25,126 nucleotides of DNA from a virus (Duplodnaviria > Heunggongvirae > Uroviricota > Caudoviricetes), in the IMG/VR virus record IMGVR_UViG_2740892271_000003; one strand, given 5' to 3'. Shown piece after piece: positions 1,518 to 24,869 of this stretch. The position numbers and the translations under genes are program-made. Within the stretch, counting starts at the first letter, position 1. Every line of letters starts with the position of its first letter. The notes under the pieces are model-generated. The model did no database searches. It was not told the DNA's origin and saw only the letters and a program-made list of their open reading frames with translations.

Positions 1518-4376
1518 GCCACTGGTTAATGAGCCACTGATACCAACCTGATTAGTCCCGCTAACTTGAGTACTCCCTGCCGGAAACATTCCAGTAGGTT
1601 GACTCCCGCTATTCGTTCTGGGCCCAGTCTGACTATGTTGGTGGGCCCCAGCTGAACTTGTAGAGCCGCTCAGACTGTGCGTATGCGCCCCGGTGTTATT
1701 CGTGGATTTAGTGCCGTAATCAAACGACGATGTGGTTTTCGTCCCCAAATCCGTACTGGATGCGCTGGCGCTGTGGGTGTGCGATTTAATGCCATCCTGT
1801 TCCTGAGACAATACGGCACGACCACTGGCGGGCTTGCCCTTAATCGTCCAGCCACGCATATCAGGGATCACGCCTGACGGATAAGCGGCTGCAAGTTTCG
1901 GGTAAGCAGATTTGTCAAAAGTCTGCCCCTGCATCAGGGCATAACCAGACGGAACGGTATCTGATGGCCACGGGATTGGTGCACCGACTGGATAAAACTC
2001 TGCAGGAGGATGAGCCGAGGTGTAAAGCTGCGCCCACGGCGACCAGTTTGCGTCGGTCGTATCCCGTCGTGAACGAATAAATGCCGGAGCATGAGCACCG
2101 CTTGTACCACTCCAGCCGATGAGTAACTCACCTTCGCCAACGGCTGTCATCCCTTTCAGGTGAATGATATTTCCATACGCTGTTGGATATCCGTTGTTAT
2201 ACACCTCGTATAACTCAAGACCTGCTGCCCCCTGCGTATTGTCTGTCAGCGCGGCTACCCGACCTTTTGAAGCCAGATTAACTGATGATACTGCTGTTCC
2301 ACCTGACGGTAGCGCCCCGATCTCTGATGCCGTTGGCTTATTTCTGGAGTTATAGTCCCTTCGCCAGCCAGGTGAATAATCTGTTCCGTGATTAATATAG
2401 GTAAACTGGGCGTTGGTTGTTCCGCCACCGCTGGATGTGGTCGGAGTGGTAATGCGGATCGTCATCGCTGACTTTATCCCCATTACTTCAATGACAGCTC
2501 CGGCGAGATGAATATTACCGCAGCCAGTATCAGTAATGATTTTATTATTGCCATAAGACCAGGAACCCTTGCACATCCAGTATGGATGGTTAAATGCTCC
2601 CTGAGAATCCAGCCACTCGATAAACTGTGCAGTCGTCCAGTTTCCTGTTGTTGTGCTTACTGACCCACCGAAGGCACGGCAGGCACCAATATTTTTCGTA
2701 AAGGTGTCTTTGCCAGGGATATCCGCACCGTTCTGATCTTTCTGCAGACGTTTCTCAGCATTGTCATTGGCTGCTTTTACTGCCTTTGGCGTTGCCGCCA
2801 GCGTTTCAGACGTGCTGTTGGTCGCGCTGCTTAGCTGGATTATCCCTTTCTGTGCTGTCGTTGCATCCTGTGCGGTGTATTTCCCGTTAGCCAGGTCATA
2901 CGCGGCCTTAACGGCTTTTGGTGTTGCCGCCAGTGACTCGGAAGTGCTGTTAGTCGCACTACTGAGCTGTACTATCCCCTTTTTCGTCGTGCTCGCATCC
3001 TCAAGCGCCACGGCGGATGCAATATCCTCTGCCCGTTTTGCCGCTGTCTCAGCGCGCGTTGCTGCAGATTCCGCCGTACTTTTGCTCTGAGCTGCTGCCG
3101 TCGCACTACCAGCAGCCTCTGTCGCCTTCGTGGATGCCGTCGTGGCGCTGCCCTTCGCTGCTGACGCCTGTCTGGTCGCCTCATCTTTTGAAGCAGACGC
3201 CGATGATGCCGATGACGCCGCCGAACTGGCGGACGATGCGGCAGCCGTTTTTGAGGATTCTGCACGGGTTTCCGACGCTTTCGCGTTCGTTTCGGATGTC
3301 TTCGCTGCGGAAGCTGACCTCGCTGCTGCCGTGGCCTGCTCAGTGGCTTCGCCAGCCTTCGTTGTGGCTGTTGAAGCGGATGATGCGGCGCTTTCTGCCG
3401 ATTTTCCGGCGGCGGTGGCACTGGCTGAGGCCTGCCCGGCACTTGTTGACGCGGCGCTGGCAGACGACGCAGCCGCTGTTTTTGAGCCTGCCGCAGCTGA
3501 GGCACTCTGTCCCGCTGCCGTTTCAGAAGACCTGGCGTTCGTCTCGGACGTTTTGGCCGCCTTCGCAGAATTTGCAGCCGCCGTCGCCGAGGAAGCTGCG
3601 CTACTGGCGCTTGATGATGCGTTCGTTTCTGATGATTTTGCCGCCTCTTTTGAAGCCGACGCATCCCGGGCTGAGGTGGCAGCTTCTGACGCTTTCGTGG
3701 TCGCGGTGGATGCAGAAGTGGCTGCTGATTGTTGTGACGCTGCCGCATTCGTTTCTAACGTTTTCGCCGCACCGGCACTGGTAGCCGCCGCGCTTTTTGA
3801 GGACTCTGCAGCGGCAGCACTTTTTGAGGCTTCAGTGGCCTTTGTTGATGCCGTTCCTGCGCTGGAAGACGCTGACTGAGCCGACGAAGCGGCCTGTCCG
3901 GCTGACGTGCTGGCTGCACGTGCTGAATCTGCAGCATCAGTCGCATGGGTTGCCGCCTCACGGGCTGATGTGCTGGCATCGCTGGCTGATTTCTTCGCGG
4001 CTGCCGTGTTCTGTGCCACCGCGGACGCGTTACGCGCCACCTCTTCCACCATCAGCTCAAAACGGCGCAGTGCCTCCGGACGGGCATCATCCTCCGTCAT
4101 GGCACCGAGAAAATCATTCAGCGTACCGGGTCGGGAATCTTCATACACGGTGATGGTCCCGGCATGTGACGGCGGGAATCCTTCCACCAACAGAATAACG
4201 CTGTACTGACCGTACTCAACGTCCATGCTGTAACGCCCGGCTTCATCCGGATTTTCTGAGGCCAGCGTGTTCACCACCACCGTGGTGCTGTTACGTTTTG
4301 CTTTCAGCTGGATTGTGCAGTTCTGTACCGGTTTTCCTGTGCCGTCTTTCAGTACACCTGAAATCTTTACTGCCAT
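1518..4376 (-). CDS. stf: Side tail fibre protein Stf, long form; C-terminus lost in the gap
   Basis: The N-terminus [26 protein letters not shown]... matches lambda Stf. An Ala/Ser-rich low-complexity shaft, the [24 protein letters not shown] motif (two copies) and a His-rich HTHS/HQHS tip region are present. The ATG at 4374..4376 is preferred over the track's GTG at 4382 because it gives the lambda-like start. Confidence 0.9.
2776..2986 (-). repeat. Tandem duplication (two ~80-bp units about 130 bp apart) encoding the conserved tail-fibre motif KGI(V/I)[11 protein letters not shown](S/T)[11 protein letters not shown]
   Basis: Near-identical nucleotide stretches around 2776..2855 and 2907..2986 (ttttggcgttgccgccag...gctgtt.gtcgc.ct.ct.agctg.a.tatcccctt), and the protein motif is repeated in the Stf translation. 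Confidence 0.5.
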
Positions 4377-4383
4377 ATTCACC

Positions 4384-4414
4384 CCACAAAAAAGCCCGCC
4401 TGAACCGGCGGGCT
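4384..4414 (-). terminator. Candidate rho-independent terminator downstream of lom, just upstream of the stf start
   Basis: On the minus strand, the stem gcccgcc/ggcgggc (4394..4400 and 4407..4413) with a 6-nt loop is followed by a U-tract (plus-strand A-run 4388..4393). Confidence 0.5.
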
Positions 4415-19552: not shown

Positions 19553-23233
<3,681 letters not shown>

Positions 23234-23259
<26 letters not shown>

Positions 23260-23779
23260 TCAGCAACCCCGGTATCAGTTCATCCAGCGCGGCTGCTTTG
23301 TTCATGGCTTTGATGATATCCCGTTTCAGGAAATCAACATGTCGGTTTTCCAGTTCCGGAAAACGCCGCTGCACCGACAGGGGGATCCCGTCGAGAATAC
23401 TGGCAATTTCACCTGCGATCCGCGACAGCACGAAAGTACAGAATGCGGTTTCCACCACTTCAGCGGAGTCTCTGGCATTTTTCAGCTCCTGTGCGTCGGC
23501 CTGCGCACGCGTAAGTCGATGGCGTTCGTACTCAATAGTCCCTGGCTGGAGATCTGTCTCGCTGGCCTGCCGCAGTTCTTCAACTTCCCGGCGCAGCTTT
23601 TCGTTCTCAATTTCAGCATCCCTTTCGGCATACCATCTTATAACGGCGGCAGAGTCATAAAGCACCTCATTACCCTTGCCACCGCCTCGCAGAACGGGCA
23701 TTCCCTGTTCCTGCCAGTTCTGAATGGTACGGATACTCGCACCGAAAATGTCAGCCAGCTGCTTTTTGTTGACTTCCAT
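23234..23779 (-). CDS. Nu1: Terminase small subunit Nu1
   Basis: 181 aa (MEVNKKQLADIFGASIRTIQNWQEQGMPVLRGGGKGNEV...), matching lambda gpNu1. Confidence 0.95.
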
Positions 23780-23789
23780 TGTTCATTCC

Positions 23790-24090
23790 ACGGACAAAAA
23801 CAGAGAAAGGAAACGACAGAGGCCAAAAAGCCCGTTTTCAGCACCTGTCGTTTCCTTTCTTTTCAGGGGGTGTTTTAAATAAAAACATTAGGTTACGGCG
23901 AAGAAGAACGGAAACGCCTTAAACCGGAAAATTGTCATAAATAGCGAAAACCCGCGCGCCTTCCGCCCCGTAACCTGTCGGATCGCCGGAAAGGACCCGC
24001 AAAATGATAATAATTATCATCTACATGTCACAACGTGCATCTACGCCATCAAACCACGTCAAATAATCAATTATGACGCAGGTATCGTAT
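23790..24090 (-). other. cos packaging region (cosB with the R1-R3 Nu1-binding repeats, cosN, and the cosQ-side sequence)
   Basis: The reverse complement reads ...gatgataattattatcattttgcgggtcctttccggcgatccgacaggttacg | gggcggaaggcg | cgcgggttttcgctatttatgacaattttccggtttaaggcgtttccg...ggaaacgacagg...ctgtcgtttcc. This is collinear with the lambda right-end/left-end junction and the aaacgacag R-site repeats as I remember them. Confidence 0.8.
23957..23968 (-). other. cosN 12-nt cohesive-end core, variant relative to lambda
   Basis: Flanked by the conserved ...caggttacg and cgcgggttttcgc... sequences. The minus strand reads GGGCGGAAGGCG, where lambda has GGGCGGCGACCT from memory. Confidence 0.6.
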
Positions 24091-24167: not shown

Positions 24168-24401
24168 ATGTCAACGAAGAACAGAACCCGCAGAACAACA
24201 ACCCGCAACATCCGCTTTCCTAACCAAATGATTGAACAAATTAACATCGCTCTTGTTCAAAAAGGGTCCGGGAATTTCTCAGCCTGGGTCATTGAAGCCT
24301 GCCGCCGGAGACTGTGCTCAGAAAAAAGAGTTTCGCCTGAAGCAAACAAAGAAAAGAGTGACATTACTGAATTGCTCAGAAAACAGGTTAGACCAGATTG
24401 A
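24168..24401 (+). CDS. Small ribbon-helix-helix-like DNA-binding protein (77 aa), hypothetical
   Basis: MSTKNRTRRTTTRNIRFPNQMIEQINIALVQKGSGNFSAWVIEACRRRL... has a basic N-terminal arm, then a beta-strand-like RNIRFP, helix, G-x-(S/N) turn and second helix, as in Arc/MetJ/CopG-type folds. AT-rich codon usage; the Shine-Dalgarno sequence is weak. Confidence 0.45.
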   Translation: MSTKNRTRRTTTRNIRFPNQMIEQINIALVQKGSGNFSAWVIEACRRRLCSEKRVSPEANKEKSDITELLRKQVRPD

Positions 24402-24458
24402 AGCAATTTAGATAATCGTGCAGACTACGCCCCCTCATATCACATGGAAGGTACTACA

Positions 24459-24869
24459 ATGGCTCAGGTTGCCATTTTTAAACAAATATTCGATAAAGTG
24501 CGAAATAATTTAAACTATCACTGGTTTTATTCTGAACTAAAACGTCACAATGTCTCACATTACATTTACTATTTAGCCACAGAGAATATTCATCTTGTTC
24601 TTGAAAACGATAATACGGTTTTAATAAAAGGACAGGGTAAGGTTGTAAATGTAAGATTTTCAAAAAATAAATGCCTTATAGAAGCCACCTTAAAAGGATT
24701 CAAATCAGGAGAGTTATCATTTTACGAATACAGGAAAAATCTTGCTACAGCAGGGGTTTTCAGATGGATTACAAATATCCACGAAAACAAAAGGTATTAC
24801 TATACCTTTGATAATTCATTACTCTTTACTGAGAACATACAGAACACTACACAAATATTTCCGCACTAA
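24459..24869 (+). CDS. Hypothetical 136-aa protein (possibly YbcV/DUF1398-like lambdoid accessory protein); the track's alternative start at 24444 gives 141 aa
   Basis: Frame verified across rows 24444..24869. A GGAAGG Shine-Dalgarno sequence lies 7 nt upstream of the ATG at 24459. AT-rich, on the strand opposite the packaging genes. The family assignment is from memory only. Confidence 0.6.

What the first reader, a model, noticed from the sequence alone, without database searches (positions are those of the whole stretch)
23944..23980. cosN cohesive-end core differs from lambda at 6 of 12 positions while the flanks are conserved
The flanking cosQ-side and cosB-side sequences match my memory of lambda almost base for base. 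The 12-nt core between them reads GGGCGGAAGGCG rather than GGGCGGCGACCT, so only the second half is replaced. The terminase genes Nu1 and A are near-identical to lambda, and lambda terminase nicking depends on the cosN sequence. This prophage may therefore be packaging-defective, may be a natural cos-specificity variant, or the difference may be a local assembly error.
Basis: partly seen in the sequence, partly recalled or inferred. Interest (0 to 1): 0.5.

Follow-up and report, generated by a model that had tools for sequence, protein, structure and literature searches.

The report
Natural variant of lambda cohesive end
This lambda-like prophage carries a real, recurrent natural version of the 12-base sticky end whose second half differs from lambda's; the change lies in the half of the cutting site that earlier lambda work found tolerant of change, so it is probably harmless and fairly ordinary.

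Summary
Read on the minus strand, the window has a complete lambda-type cos. Its 12-nt core (window 23957-23968) is GGGCGGAAGGCG, where lambda has GGGCGGCGACCT. Five positions differ (7, 8, 9, 10, 12), not six; C11 is kept.

It is not an assembly error. The same core occurs in 51 IMG/VR contigs, in roughly 70-100 complete E. coli records, in 23 PLSDB plasmids and in two deposited phage records.

It is not a co-evolved specificity variant. Identical Nu1 and gpA proteins sit next to both alleles, and no gpA residue tracks the allele.

All changes lie in cosN bp 7-12. Published lambda genetics found this half insensitive to sequence, because TerS bound at R3 positions TerL for the bottom-strand nick. 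The critical left half, both CG nick flanks, cosQ, R3/R2/R1 and their spacing are unchanged. N15, phiD326, Gifsy-1 and mEp213 also vary only in this half.

The prophage is therefore most likely packaging-competent and makes virions with different sticky ends. This has not been tested.

The allele predominates in N15-like telomere phage-plasmids of Escherichia and Shigella that carry lambda-type heads. Verdict: a further natural allele of a known pattern; low interest.

The parts
23957..23968 (-). cosN 12-nt cohesive-end core, 5'-GGGCGGAAGGCG-3' on the minus strand (bp 1 = 23968, bp 12 = 23957)
   Evidence: Read directly. It aligns with the annotated 'cos site' of phage DE3 and with bp 1-12 of NC_001416.
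23957..23962 (-). Variant right half, bp 7-12: AAGGCG where lambda has CGACCT. Five of six positions differ and C11 is kept.
   Evidence: The five changes travel together in 55 of 55 variant loci.
23963..23970 (-). Conserved left half, bp 1-6 (GGGCGG), plus the CG (bp -2, -1) that flanks the top-strand nick site
   Evidence: Identical to lambda. Bp 1-5 were invariant in 119 loci found with a pattern that left the core free.
23955..23956 (-). CG (bp 13-14) flanking the bottom-strand nick site, unchanged
   Evidence: PMC4669245 reports this flank as highly conserved among lambda-like phages.
23992..23998 (-). cosQ heptamer GGGTCCT at -30..-24, the packaging-termination signal
   Evidence: Same sequence and same distance from cosN as in lambda.
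23904..23920 (-). cosB R3 (bp 49-65, AAGGCGTTTCCGTTCTT), the TerS binding site that anchors TerL
   Evidence: Identical to lambda and at identical spacing. The R3 sequence is given in the supplement of PMC6092414.
23845..23860 (-). cosB R2 (AGAAAGGAAACGACAG, bp 109-124)
   Evidence: Identical to lambda.
23804..23819 (-). cosB R1 (CTGTCGTTTCCTTTCT, bp 150-165)
   Evidence: Identical to lambda.
23234..23779 (-). Nu1 (TerS), 181 aa
   Evidence: 178/181 identical to lambda Nu1. This exact protein occurs 6 times next to the variant cosN and 7 times next to the canonical one.
21334..23259 (-). A (TerL), 641 aa
   Evidence: 637/641 identical to lambda gpA. No residue is diagnostic of the cosN allele, and two identical gpA proteins are shared by both classes.

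Best explanation
This is a natural allele of the right half (bp 7-12) of the lambda-type nicking site cosN. It most likely works as a normal cos.

Proposed mechanism:
1. TerS (Nu1) binds R3/R2/R1 of cosB, which are unchanged and at unchanged spacing.
2. TerS positions TerL (gpA) to nick the bottom strand between bp 12 and 13 by distance rather than by local sequence.
3. A second TerL nicks the top strand at the unchanged left half-site, CG^GGGCGG.
4. Virion chromosomes therefore carry 12-nt 5' ends reading GGGCGGAAGGCG. These anneal to each other about as stably as lambda's ends, but poorly to lambda-type ends.

The five-base block behaves as one haplotype. It has spread by recombination onto many lambdoid backgrounds. 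It is the predominant allele in N15-like telomere phage-plasmids of Escherichia and Shigella that carry lambda-type head and tail genes.

Shown here: the sequence, its recurrence, its lack of coupling to terminase sequence, and the conservation of every other cos element.

Inferred from published lambda genetics, not tested on this allele: that nicking is efficient, that the nick positions are unchanged, and that this prophage yields infectious particles.
For: Recurrence:
- The exact core was read in every one of the eight sampled E. coli chromosomes and plasmids from different countries and hosts and in the deposited phage PhiR46_1; a ninth sampled record, p13TMH22-2, carries the one-base derivative GGGCGGAAGGTG.
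- It is in 51 IMG/VR contigs.
- About 70-100 of roughly 3,500-4,400 E. coli records that hold this cos match the variant-core query at 95% identity or more (estimated from identity bands).
- It is in 23 of 56 PLSDB hits.
- It has 19 distinct upstream contexts.

No coupling to terminase:
- I compared 31 variant-class and 41 canonical-class full-length gpA proteins. No residue is diagnostic; the largest frequency difference is 0.41, at residues 9 and 21, which are nearest to cos.
- Two gpA and five Nu1 proteins are identical between the classes, including the window's own Nu1.
- Conversely, TerLs only 64% identical to lambda gpA sit beside the canonical core.

Everything else in cos equals lambda: cosQ, bp 1-6, both CG flanks, R3/R2/R1 and spacing. 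The late genes Nu1 through J are full length.

Literature (PMC4669245):
- Mutations at bp 7-12 have minimal effect, whereas symmetric left-half changes are severe (citing Xu & Feiss 1991).
- The asymmetry depends on cosB (citing Hang et al. 2001).
- Terminase measures its cut about 47 bp from the R site (citing Higgins & Becker 1994).
- Lambda TerL gave equal yields with the lambda and N15 cosN.
- Natural variation in N15 and phiD326 (bp 9, 12) and Gifsy-1 (bp 8, 9, 11) is confined to the right half. mEp213/LLS has GGGCGGCGCGCT (PMC12315714).

Carriers that look active:
- PhiR46_1 is deposited as a phage with a named host.
- pRHBSTW-00124_4 carries protelomerase, SopA/ParB and lambda-type late genes.

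Calculated duplex stability: variant x variant -18.6 kcal/mol, against lambda x lambda -19.0.
Against: - No virion end sequence or cleavage assay exists for this allele in anything I could read.
- The published tolerance data concern single changes or the 2-bp N15 difference, not five simultaneous changes. Those five remove the G at bp 10 that mirrors G3 in the left half-site.
- PhiR46_1 is deposited in prophage (telL..telR) orientation. I could not find its paper, so its propagation as virions is not verified.
- Many carriers are prophages of unknown activity. Some are clearly defective, for example L012.
- The variant creates a (CG)3 run across the bottom-strand nick site, so a shifted nick (10- or 14-nt overhang) cannot be excluded from sequence alone.
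- The window's gpA has the rare L404R change, three residues from D401. Arg is, however, native at this position in a divergent TerL group.
Confidence: 0.85

Rival explanations
1. The five-base change cripples bottom-strand nicking, so this prophage and other carriers cannot package their DNA. The allele would then be decay in cryptic prophages.
For: Five of six right-half positions are changed at once, more than any tested mutant described in PMC4669245. Some carriers are visibly defective: L012, L017, L045 and L052 gave no TerL match, and L012, the one examined by ORFs, has lost the TerL-to-E region. The window's gpA carries the rare L404R near the nuclease Asp.
Against: The block is one invariant haplotype found in 19 or more contexts, beside intact terminase genes 98-100% identical to those of canonical phages. 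Random decay would give scattered, heterogeneous changes and damaged neighbouring genes. It is the predominant allele in N15-like phage-plasmids of several Escherichia species and Shigella, and it is present in a record deposited as a phage. All late genes in the window are full length.
Confidence: 0.06
2. It is a packaging-specificity variant: the terminase large subunit has co-evolved to recognise the new right half, giving a distinct cos specificity class.
For: Lambda, 21 and N15 do have distinct packaging specificities (PMC4669245). The cosB positions bp 71, 97 and 137 are in linkage disequilibrium with the allele.
Against: Known specificity resides in TerS and cosB, not in cosN (PMC4669245). 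Here R3/R2/R1 are identical to lambda. Identical Nu1 and gpA proteins occur with both alleles, and no residue in either protein is diagnostic. The linked cosB positions lie outside the R sites and are not fixed.
Confidence: 0.03
3. It is a local assembly or sequencing error in this genome.
For: None beyond its rarity. About 2% of lambda-type cos sites in complete E. coli genomes carry it.
Against: The identical 12-mer is present in well over 100 independent records across four collections.
Confidence: 0.01
4. The allele is neutral for cutting but is maintained because it makes the cohesive ends incompatible with canonical lambda-type ends. It would act as a barrier to productive hybrid chromosomes between co-resident lambdoid elements.
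For: The calculated lambda x variant end duplex pairs only 6 bp (-9.5 kcal/mol, against about -19 for matched ends). A mere 2-bp mismatch already cut viable yield about fourfold (PMC4669245). No intermediate alleles were seen between the two haplotypes. The allele is concentrated in one lifestyle class, the telomere phage-plasmids.
Against: Both ends of a normal chromosome come from the same element's cos copies, so mismatched ends arise only in special arrangements such as tandem heteroallelic prophages. Drift plus hitch-hiking in the phage-plasmid lineage explains the distribution equally well. Further drift is seen (GGGCGGAAGGTG; GGGCGTCAGGCG).
Confidence: 0.1

Closest known systems
Phage lambda cos (cosQ-cosN-cosB), cohesive end GGGCGGCGACCT
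   Same: cosQ, bp 1-6, C11, both CG nick flanks, R3/R2/R1 and all spacings are identical. Nu1 is 98% and gpA 99% identical.
   Different: Bp 7, 8, 9, 10 and 12 differ (AAGGCG against CGACCT).
Phage N15 / phiD326 cosN (GGGCGGCGTCCG)
   Same: Natural variation is confined to the right half. G12 is shared. Feiss et al. 2015 found that lambda TerL uses the N15 allele as efficiently as its own. The window's allele is the common one in N15-like telomere phage-plasmids that carry lambda-type heads.
   Different: N15 differs from lambda at only 2 positions (9 and 12), has T9 rather than G9, and keeps C7 G8 C10. Its cosB has a single R3, and in this comparison its TerL is 87% identical to the window's gpA.
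Salmonella phage Gifsy-1 cosN and mEp213/LLS cosN (GGGCGGCGCGCT)
   Same: They are further natural right-half alleles of lambda-like cohesive ends (PMC4669245; PMC12315714).
   Different: They change different positions: 8, 9 and 11 in Gifsy-1; 9 and 10 in mEp213/LLS. I did not read the Gifsy-1 sequence here.
cos sites of E. coli PICIs (EcCICFT073 cos1/cos2)
   Same: They have lambda-like cosQ and cosN and are cut by lambda-like TerL.
   Different: The PICI sites carry the canonical core and lack the phage cosB. The window has the full lambda cosB with the variant core.

Membership tests
Lambda-type cos site of the lambda-like phages (12-nt 5' cohesive ends) | cosQ heptamer GGGTCCT about 24-30 bp upstream of the top-strand nick | tested here: met
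   Window 23992-23998 (minus strand), same offset as lambda.
Lambda-type cos site of the lambda-like phages (12-nt 5' cohesive ends) | Conserved left half of cosN (bp 1-6 GGGCGG) and 5'-CG-3' flanking both nick positions | tested here: met
   Identical to lambda. PMC4669245 names these as the conserved, selected positions.
Lambda-type cos site of the lambda-like phages (12-nt 5' cohesive ends) | Right half bp 7-12 identical to lambda. This is not a defining feature according to PMC4669245; it is listed because the finding rests on it. | tested here: not met
   Five of six positions differ. The literature reports that this half varies naturally and tolerates mutation.
Lambda-type cos site of the lambda-like phages (12-nt 5' cohesive ends) | cosB with R3-(I1)-R2-R1 at fixed distance from cosN, followed by the TerS and TerL genes | tested here: met
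   R3, R2 and R1 are identical and there is no indel over bp 1-136. Nu1 and A are 98-99% identical to lambda. I1 was not scored separately.
Lambda-type cos site of the lambda-like phages (12-nt 5' cohesive ends) | Terminase actually makes 12-nt 5' overhangs at this site in virion DNA | not testable with these tools
   Needs virion DNA end sequencing or an in vitro cleavage assay.
N15-type cosN allele | Core GGGCGGCGTCCG | tested here: not met
   The N15 record reads GGGCGGCGTCCG. The window shares only G12 among the changed positions.
PICI cos (cosQ and cosN without phage cosB, followed by rpp) | No phage R sites downstream of cosN, and an rpp gene in place of terS | tested here: not met
   The window has lambda R3/R2/R1 and a full-length Nu1.

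The most novel reading that the evidence does not exclude
The AAGGCG block defines a second cohesive-end compatibility type among lambda-terminase phages, maintained by selection rather than by drift. It would mark the lineage of telomere (N15-like) phage-plasmids with lambda-type heads. It would limit productive end-joining, and so genome exchange through heteroallelic packaging, with canonical lambda-type chromosomes. The breakpoints of such exchanges would fall exactly at the nicks. This fits the stronger linkage of the allele to cosB-side positions than to cosQ-side positions.
Probability: 0.1. Interest if true: 0.45.

Novelty: new member of a known kind. Interest (0 to 1): 0.2.

Why it matters
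The finding mainly closes a question. The odd sticky end is neither an error nor a sign of a dead prophage. It fits the established rule that only the left half of cosN and the nick-flanking CG pairs are sequence-critical.

Practical consequences are modest:
- Tools and annotators that locate cos by the lambda 12-mer will miss about 2% of E. coli lambda-type cos sites, and most of those on N15-like phage-plasmids.
- Virion ends of these phages should not anneal to lambda arms or to cosmid ends.
- Five simultaneous natural changes next to a lambda-identical terminase give the strongest natural case yet for the distance-ruler model of bottom-strand nicking. That model could be tested directly with lambda reagents.

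Tried and rejected
1. PICI lead. Some variant loci (L012, L017, L045, L052) have an AlpA-like gene, then cos, then a 175-aa TerS-like gene, which suggested a PICI cos-rpp arrangement. Had the experimentally packaged EcCICFT073 carried the variant core, that would have been direct proof of cutting by lambda terminase. The supplement of PMC6092414 shows that cos1, cos2, phi4, phi80 and lambda all have the canonical core. The 175-aa protein is a full-length TerS, 47% identical to N15 gp1. In L012, the locus whose ORFs I examined, it sits in a prophage that has lost the TerL-to-E region; all four loci gave no TerL match. It matched no NCBIfam family.

2. Covariation between cosN allele and gpA or Nu1 residues. 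None was found.

3. Origin outside Escherichia. A scan of one genome per species found only one enterobacterial hit, Escherichia sp. E1V33. The other eight hits were in high-GC or otherwise unrelated bacteria and are best read as chance.

4. Published mention of the 12-mer. No phage paper in the searchable library contains it. The survey by Vahanian et al. 2017 (Virology 509:140) could not be read, so I cannot say whether it lists this allele.

5. The paper describing the PhiR phages was not found.

6. The source genome was not identified. The best complete E. coli genomes match at about 97%.

7. By eye, I looked for an inversion or a templated origin of the block from nearby cosQ-side sequence. 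I found no convincing match.

Full report
**The observation**

The terminase genes of the window lie on the minus strand: Nu1 at 23234-23779 and A at 21334-23259. The cos site must therefore be read as the reverse complement. It reads ...GGGTCCTTTCCGGCGATCCGACAGGTTACG|GGGCGGAAGGCG|CGCGGGTTTTCGCTATTTATGACAATTTTCCGG.... The 12-nt core is at window 23957-23968.

I aligned it with phage DE3, whose record annotates these 12 bases as the 'cos site', and with lambda NC_001416, PhiR63_1, 2H10, Turner and an Stx1a phage. All of those read GGGCGGCGACCT. The window differs at bp 7, 8, 9, 10 and 12. C11 is the same, so the count is 5 of 12, not 6.

- cosQ (GGGTCCT, -30..-24) is unchanged.
- The CG pairs flanking both nick positions are unchanged.
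- R3, R2 and R1 are identical to lambda.
- There is no indel between bp 1 and 136.

gpA is 637/641 identical to lambda and Nu1 is 178/181 identical.

Five mismatches in six adjacent bases do not fit the background divergence. The region has 13-23 mismatches in 391 nt, and the permutation p ranged from 1e-5 to 8e-4. The block is best read as one replacement event.

**Not an error, and not unique**

A 75-nt query centred on the site found a minority class of complete E. coli genome records with only 1-3 mismatches. The canonical class had 5-6 mismatches. The identity bands mix in some partial matches, so my estimate is rough: about 70-100 records out of 3,500-4,400 that hold this cos, or about 2%.

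Every sampled member of the minority class that I read had the exact core:
- APEC E14033, strain 582, SBF22, CFSAN018748 and FHI_NMBU_03 chromosomes.
- Plasmids pAH01-1, RL465-III and pRHBSTW-00124_4.

One plasmid, p13TMH22-2, had the one-step derivative GGGCGGAAGGTG.

An exact-pattern scan of IMG/VR gave 51 contigs. Its first 120 loci held 115 canonical cores, 2 GGGCGTCAGGCG, 1 GGGCGGCGACCG, 1 GGGCGACGACCT and no AAGGCG variant, which fits a low frequency. Bp 1-5 and C11 were invariant among those loci.

The variant loci have 19 different sequences upstream of cosQ. The allele therefore sits on many recombinant backgrounds. The five changes always occur together, in 55 of 55 loci.

**No co-evolution with terminase**

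From the fetched loci I extracted 31 variant-class and 41 canonical-class full-length (641-aa) gpA proteins. All are 96-100% identical to the window's gpA.

- No column separates the classes. The best frequency difference is 0.41, at residues 9 and 21, the part of the gene nearest to cos.
- Two gpA proteins and five Nu1 proteins are identical across the two classes.
- The window's own Nu1 occurs 6 times with the variant core and 7 times with the canonical core.
- Conversely, TerL proteins only 64% identical to lambda gpA sit beside the canonical core.

The right half of cosN and the terminase sequence are thus uncoupled in both directions.

Only nearby cosB-side nucleotides are in linkage disequilibrium with the allele: bp 71, 97 and 137, all outside the R sites. 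That linkage is stronger than on the cosQ side.

**Why this is expected to work**

This part rests on the literature, not on tests here. Feiss et al. 2015 (PMC4669245) summarise the following:
- Many mutations at bp 7-12 have minimal phenotype, whereas symmetric left-half changes are severe. G2C lowers yield about tenfold; C11G has no effect (citing Xu & Feiss 1991).
- The asymmetry depends on the proximity of cosB (citing Hang et al. 2001).
- Terminase measures its point of attack about 47 bp from the R site (citing Higgins & Becker 1994).
- Lambda TerL gave the same burst with the lambda cosN and the N15 cosN.
- Natural variation lies in the right half: N15 and phiD326 at bp 9 and 12, Gifsy-1 at bp 8, 9 and 11. 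cosQ, the left half and the flanking CG pairs are conserved.

I confirmed the N15 end as GGGCGGCGTCCG. mEp213/LLS is reported as GGGCGGCGCGCT (PMC12315714). Papers citing Vahanian et al. 2017 report conservation of the first four bases and of the two bases on either side. I could not read that paper itself.

The window's allele changes only tolerated positions and keeps every conserved one. The most likely mechanism is therefore the ordinary one. Nu1 on R3/R2/R1 positions gpA to nick the bottom strand between bp 12 and 13 by distance. A second gpA nicks the top strand at the unchanged CG^GGGCGG.

The calculated stability of the annealed variant ends (-18.6 kcal/mol) matches lambda's (-19.0). 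A lambda end against a variant end pairs only six bases (-9.5).

**Are the carriers active?**

- In the window, all late genes from Nu1 to J have lambda-like full lengths.
- PhiR46_1 (PV340565.1), a record deposited as a phage with host ECOR13, carries the allele. It is an N15-like linear plasmid prophage with annotated telL/telR, ParA/ParB and lambda-type head and tail genes.
- In PLSDB, 23 of 56 hits carry the allele. Most are non-mobilizable plasmids of about 34-51 kb, and seven are larger (62-91 kb); they come from E. coli, E. albertii, E. fergusonii and Shigella sonnei.
- One of these that I inspected, pRHBSTW-00124_4, encodes protelomerase, SopA/ParB and a full lambda-type late region.
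- Most canonical-core 'plasmid' hits are mis-labelled chromosome pieces or lambda-sized records.

The variant is therefore the predominant allele of this phage-plasmid lineage. This argues for function but does not prove it. I found no virion-end data, and I could not find the PhiR paper.

**Caveats**

- Five simultaneous changes exceed anything reported as tested.
- The change makes a (CG)3 run across the bottom-strand nick, so a shifted nick cannot be excluded.
- The window's gpA has L404R, which is rare (3 of 73) and lies three residues from D401. Arg is, however, the native residue there in a divergent TerL group.

**Verdict**

This is a real, recurrent, natural right-half allele of lambda cosN. 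It follows an already described rule. It is very probably neutral for cutting, and it gives sticky ends incompatible with lambda's. It is a new member of a known kind, unless Vahanian et al. 2017 already list it. Interest is low, about 0.2.

The most novel reading not excluded is that the allele acts as a selected cohesive-end compatibility type for the telomere phage-plasmid lineage. I put its probability at about 0.1.

Noticed in passing
window 22048-22050 (minus strand; gpA codon 404): gpA has L404R, three residues after Asp401 in the AGIDSQ motif. That this Asp is catalytic for the nuclease is from memory, not tested. The change is rare among near-identical gpA proteins (3 of 73: the window, L024, L058; all variant-cos). 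Arg is the native residue at this position in a TerL group 64% identical to gpA (AGIDSQRNRFEMY).
   Followed up: partly
window 23934 (bp 35 of cos, minus strand): A35C lies in the spacer between cosN and R3 (TATGAcAATTTT). C occurs here in only 8 of 178 related loci, against A in 158 and G in 12. It is absent from the other E. coli and phage records carrying the variant core that were aligned.
   Followed up: partly
PLSDB and E. coli records, e.g. CP056845.1 (L195), NZ_CP055252.1 (L009), PV340565.1 (L191): A family of roughly 42-47 kb N15-like telomere phage-plasmids (protelomerase, SopA/ParB, large primase) carries lambda-type rather than N15-type head and tail genes, with terminase almost identical to lambda's. 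They occur in E. coli, E. albertii, E. fergusonii and Shigella sonnei, and almost all carry the variant cosN.
   Followed up: partly
L165:5456 region and L179 (IMG/VR); L197 (p13TMH22-2): Further cosN alleles related to the window's: GGGCGTCAGGCG (G6T, C7, then the same AGGCG tail; seen once beside a lambda cosB and once beside a different cosB and TerS) and GGGCGGAAGGTG (C11T on the variant background). GGGCGGCGACCG (L116) and GGGCGACGACCT (L149) were also seen.
   Followed up: no
L012:3676-9736 (also L017, L045, L052): The variant cosN sits beside a different cosB and a 175-aa TerS that is 47% identical to N15 gp1 and 35% to Nu1, with an AlpA-like gene just upstream. In L012, TerL through the N-terminal part of the capsid gene E is missing and is replaced by an unrelated 253-aa reverse-strand gene. 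It looks like a recurrent deleted prophage, or possibly a satellite-like element.
   Followed up: partly
PLSDB hits H218, H220, H227, H231: 'Plasmids' of 48,499-48,502 bp (and one of 39,760 bp) with the canonical lambda cos are recorded for Salmonella, Paenibacillus, Stenotrophomonas and Alicyclobacillus. The sizes of three equal the lambda genome, which suggests lambda control DNA assembled as a plasmid.
   Followed up: no
window 24168-24401 (+) and 24444-24869 (+): Upstream of cos, on the opposite strand, lie a YlcI/YnfO-family ORF (77 aa) and a DUF1398 (YbcV/YdfO-like) ORF (141 aa). The same arrangement is annotated in E. coli strain 582. This points to a chromosomal DLP12/Qin-style lambdoid prophage rather than a phage-plasmid.
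   Followed up: partly
window about 23832 (bp 137 of cos): There is a one-base length difference from NC_001416 between R2 and R1 (AACG-GGC against AGCGAGGC). Most related loci, and the DE3 record, share the shorter form, so Nu1 starts at bp 190 rather than 191.
   Followed up: no
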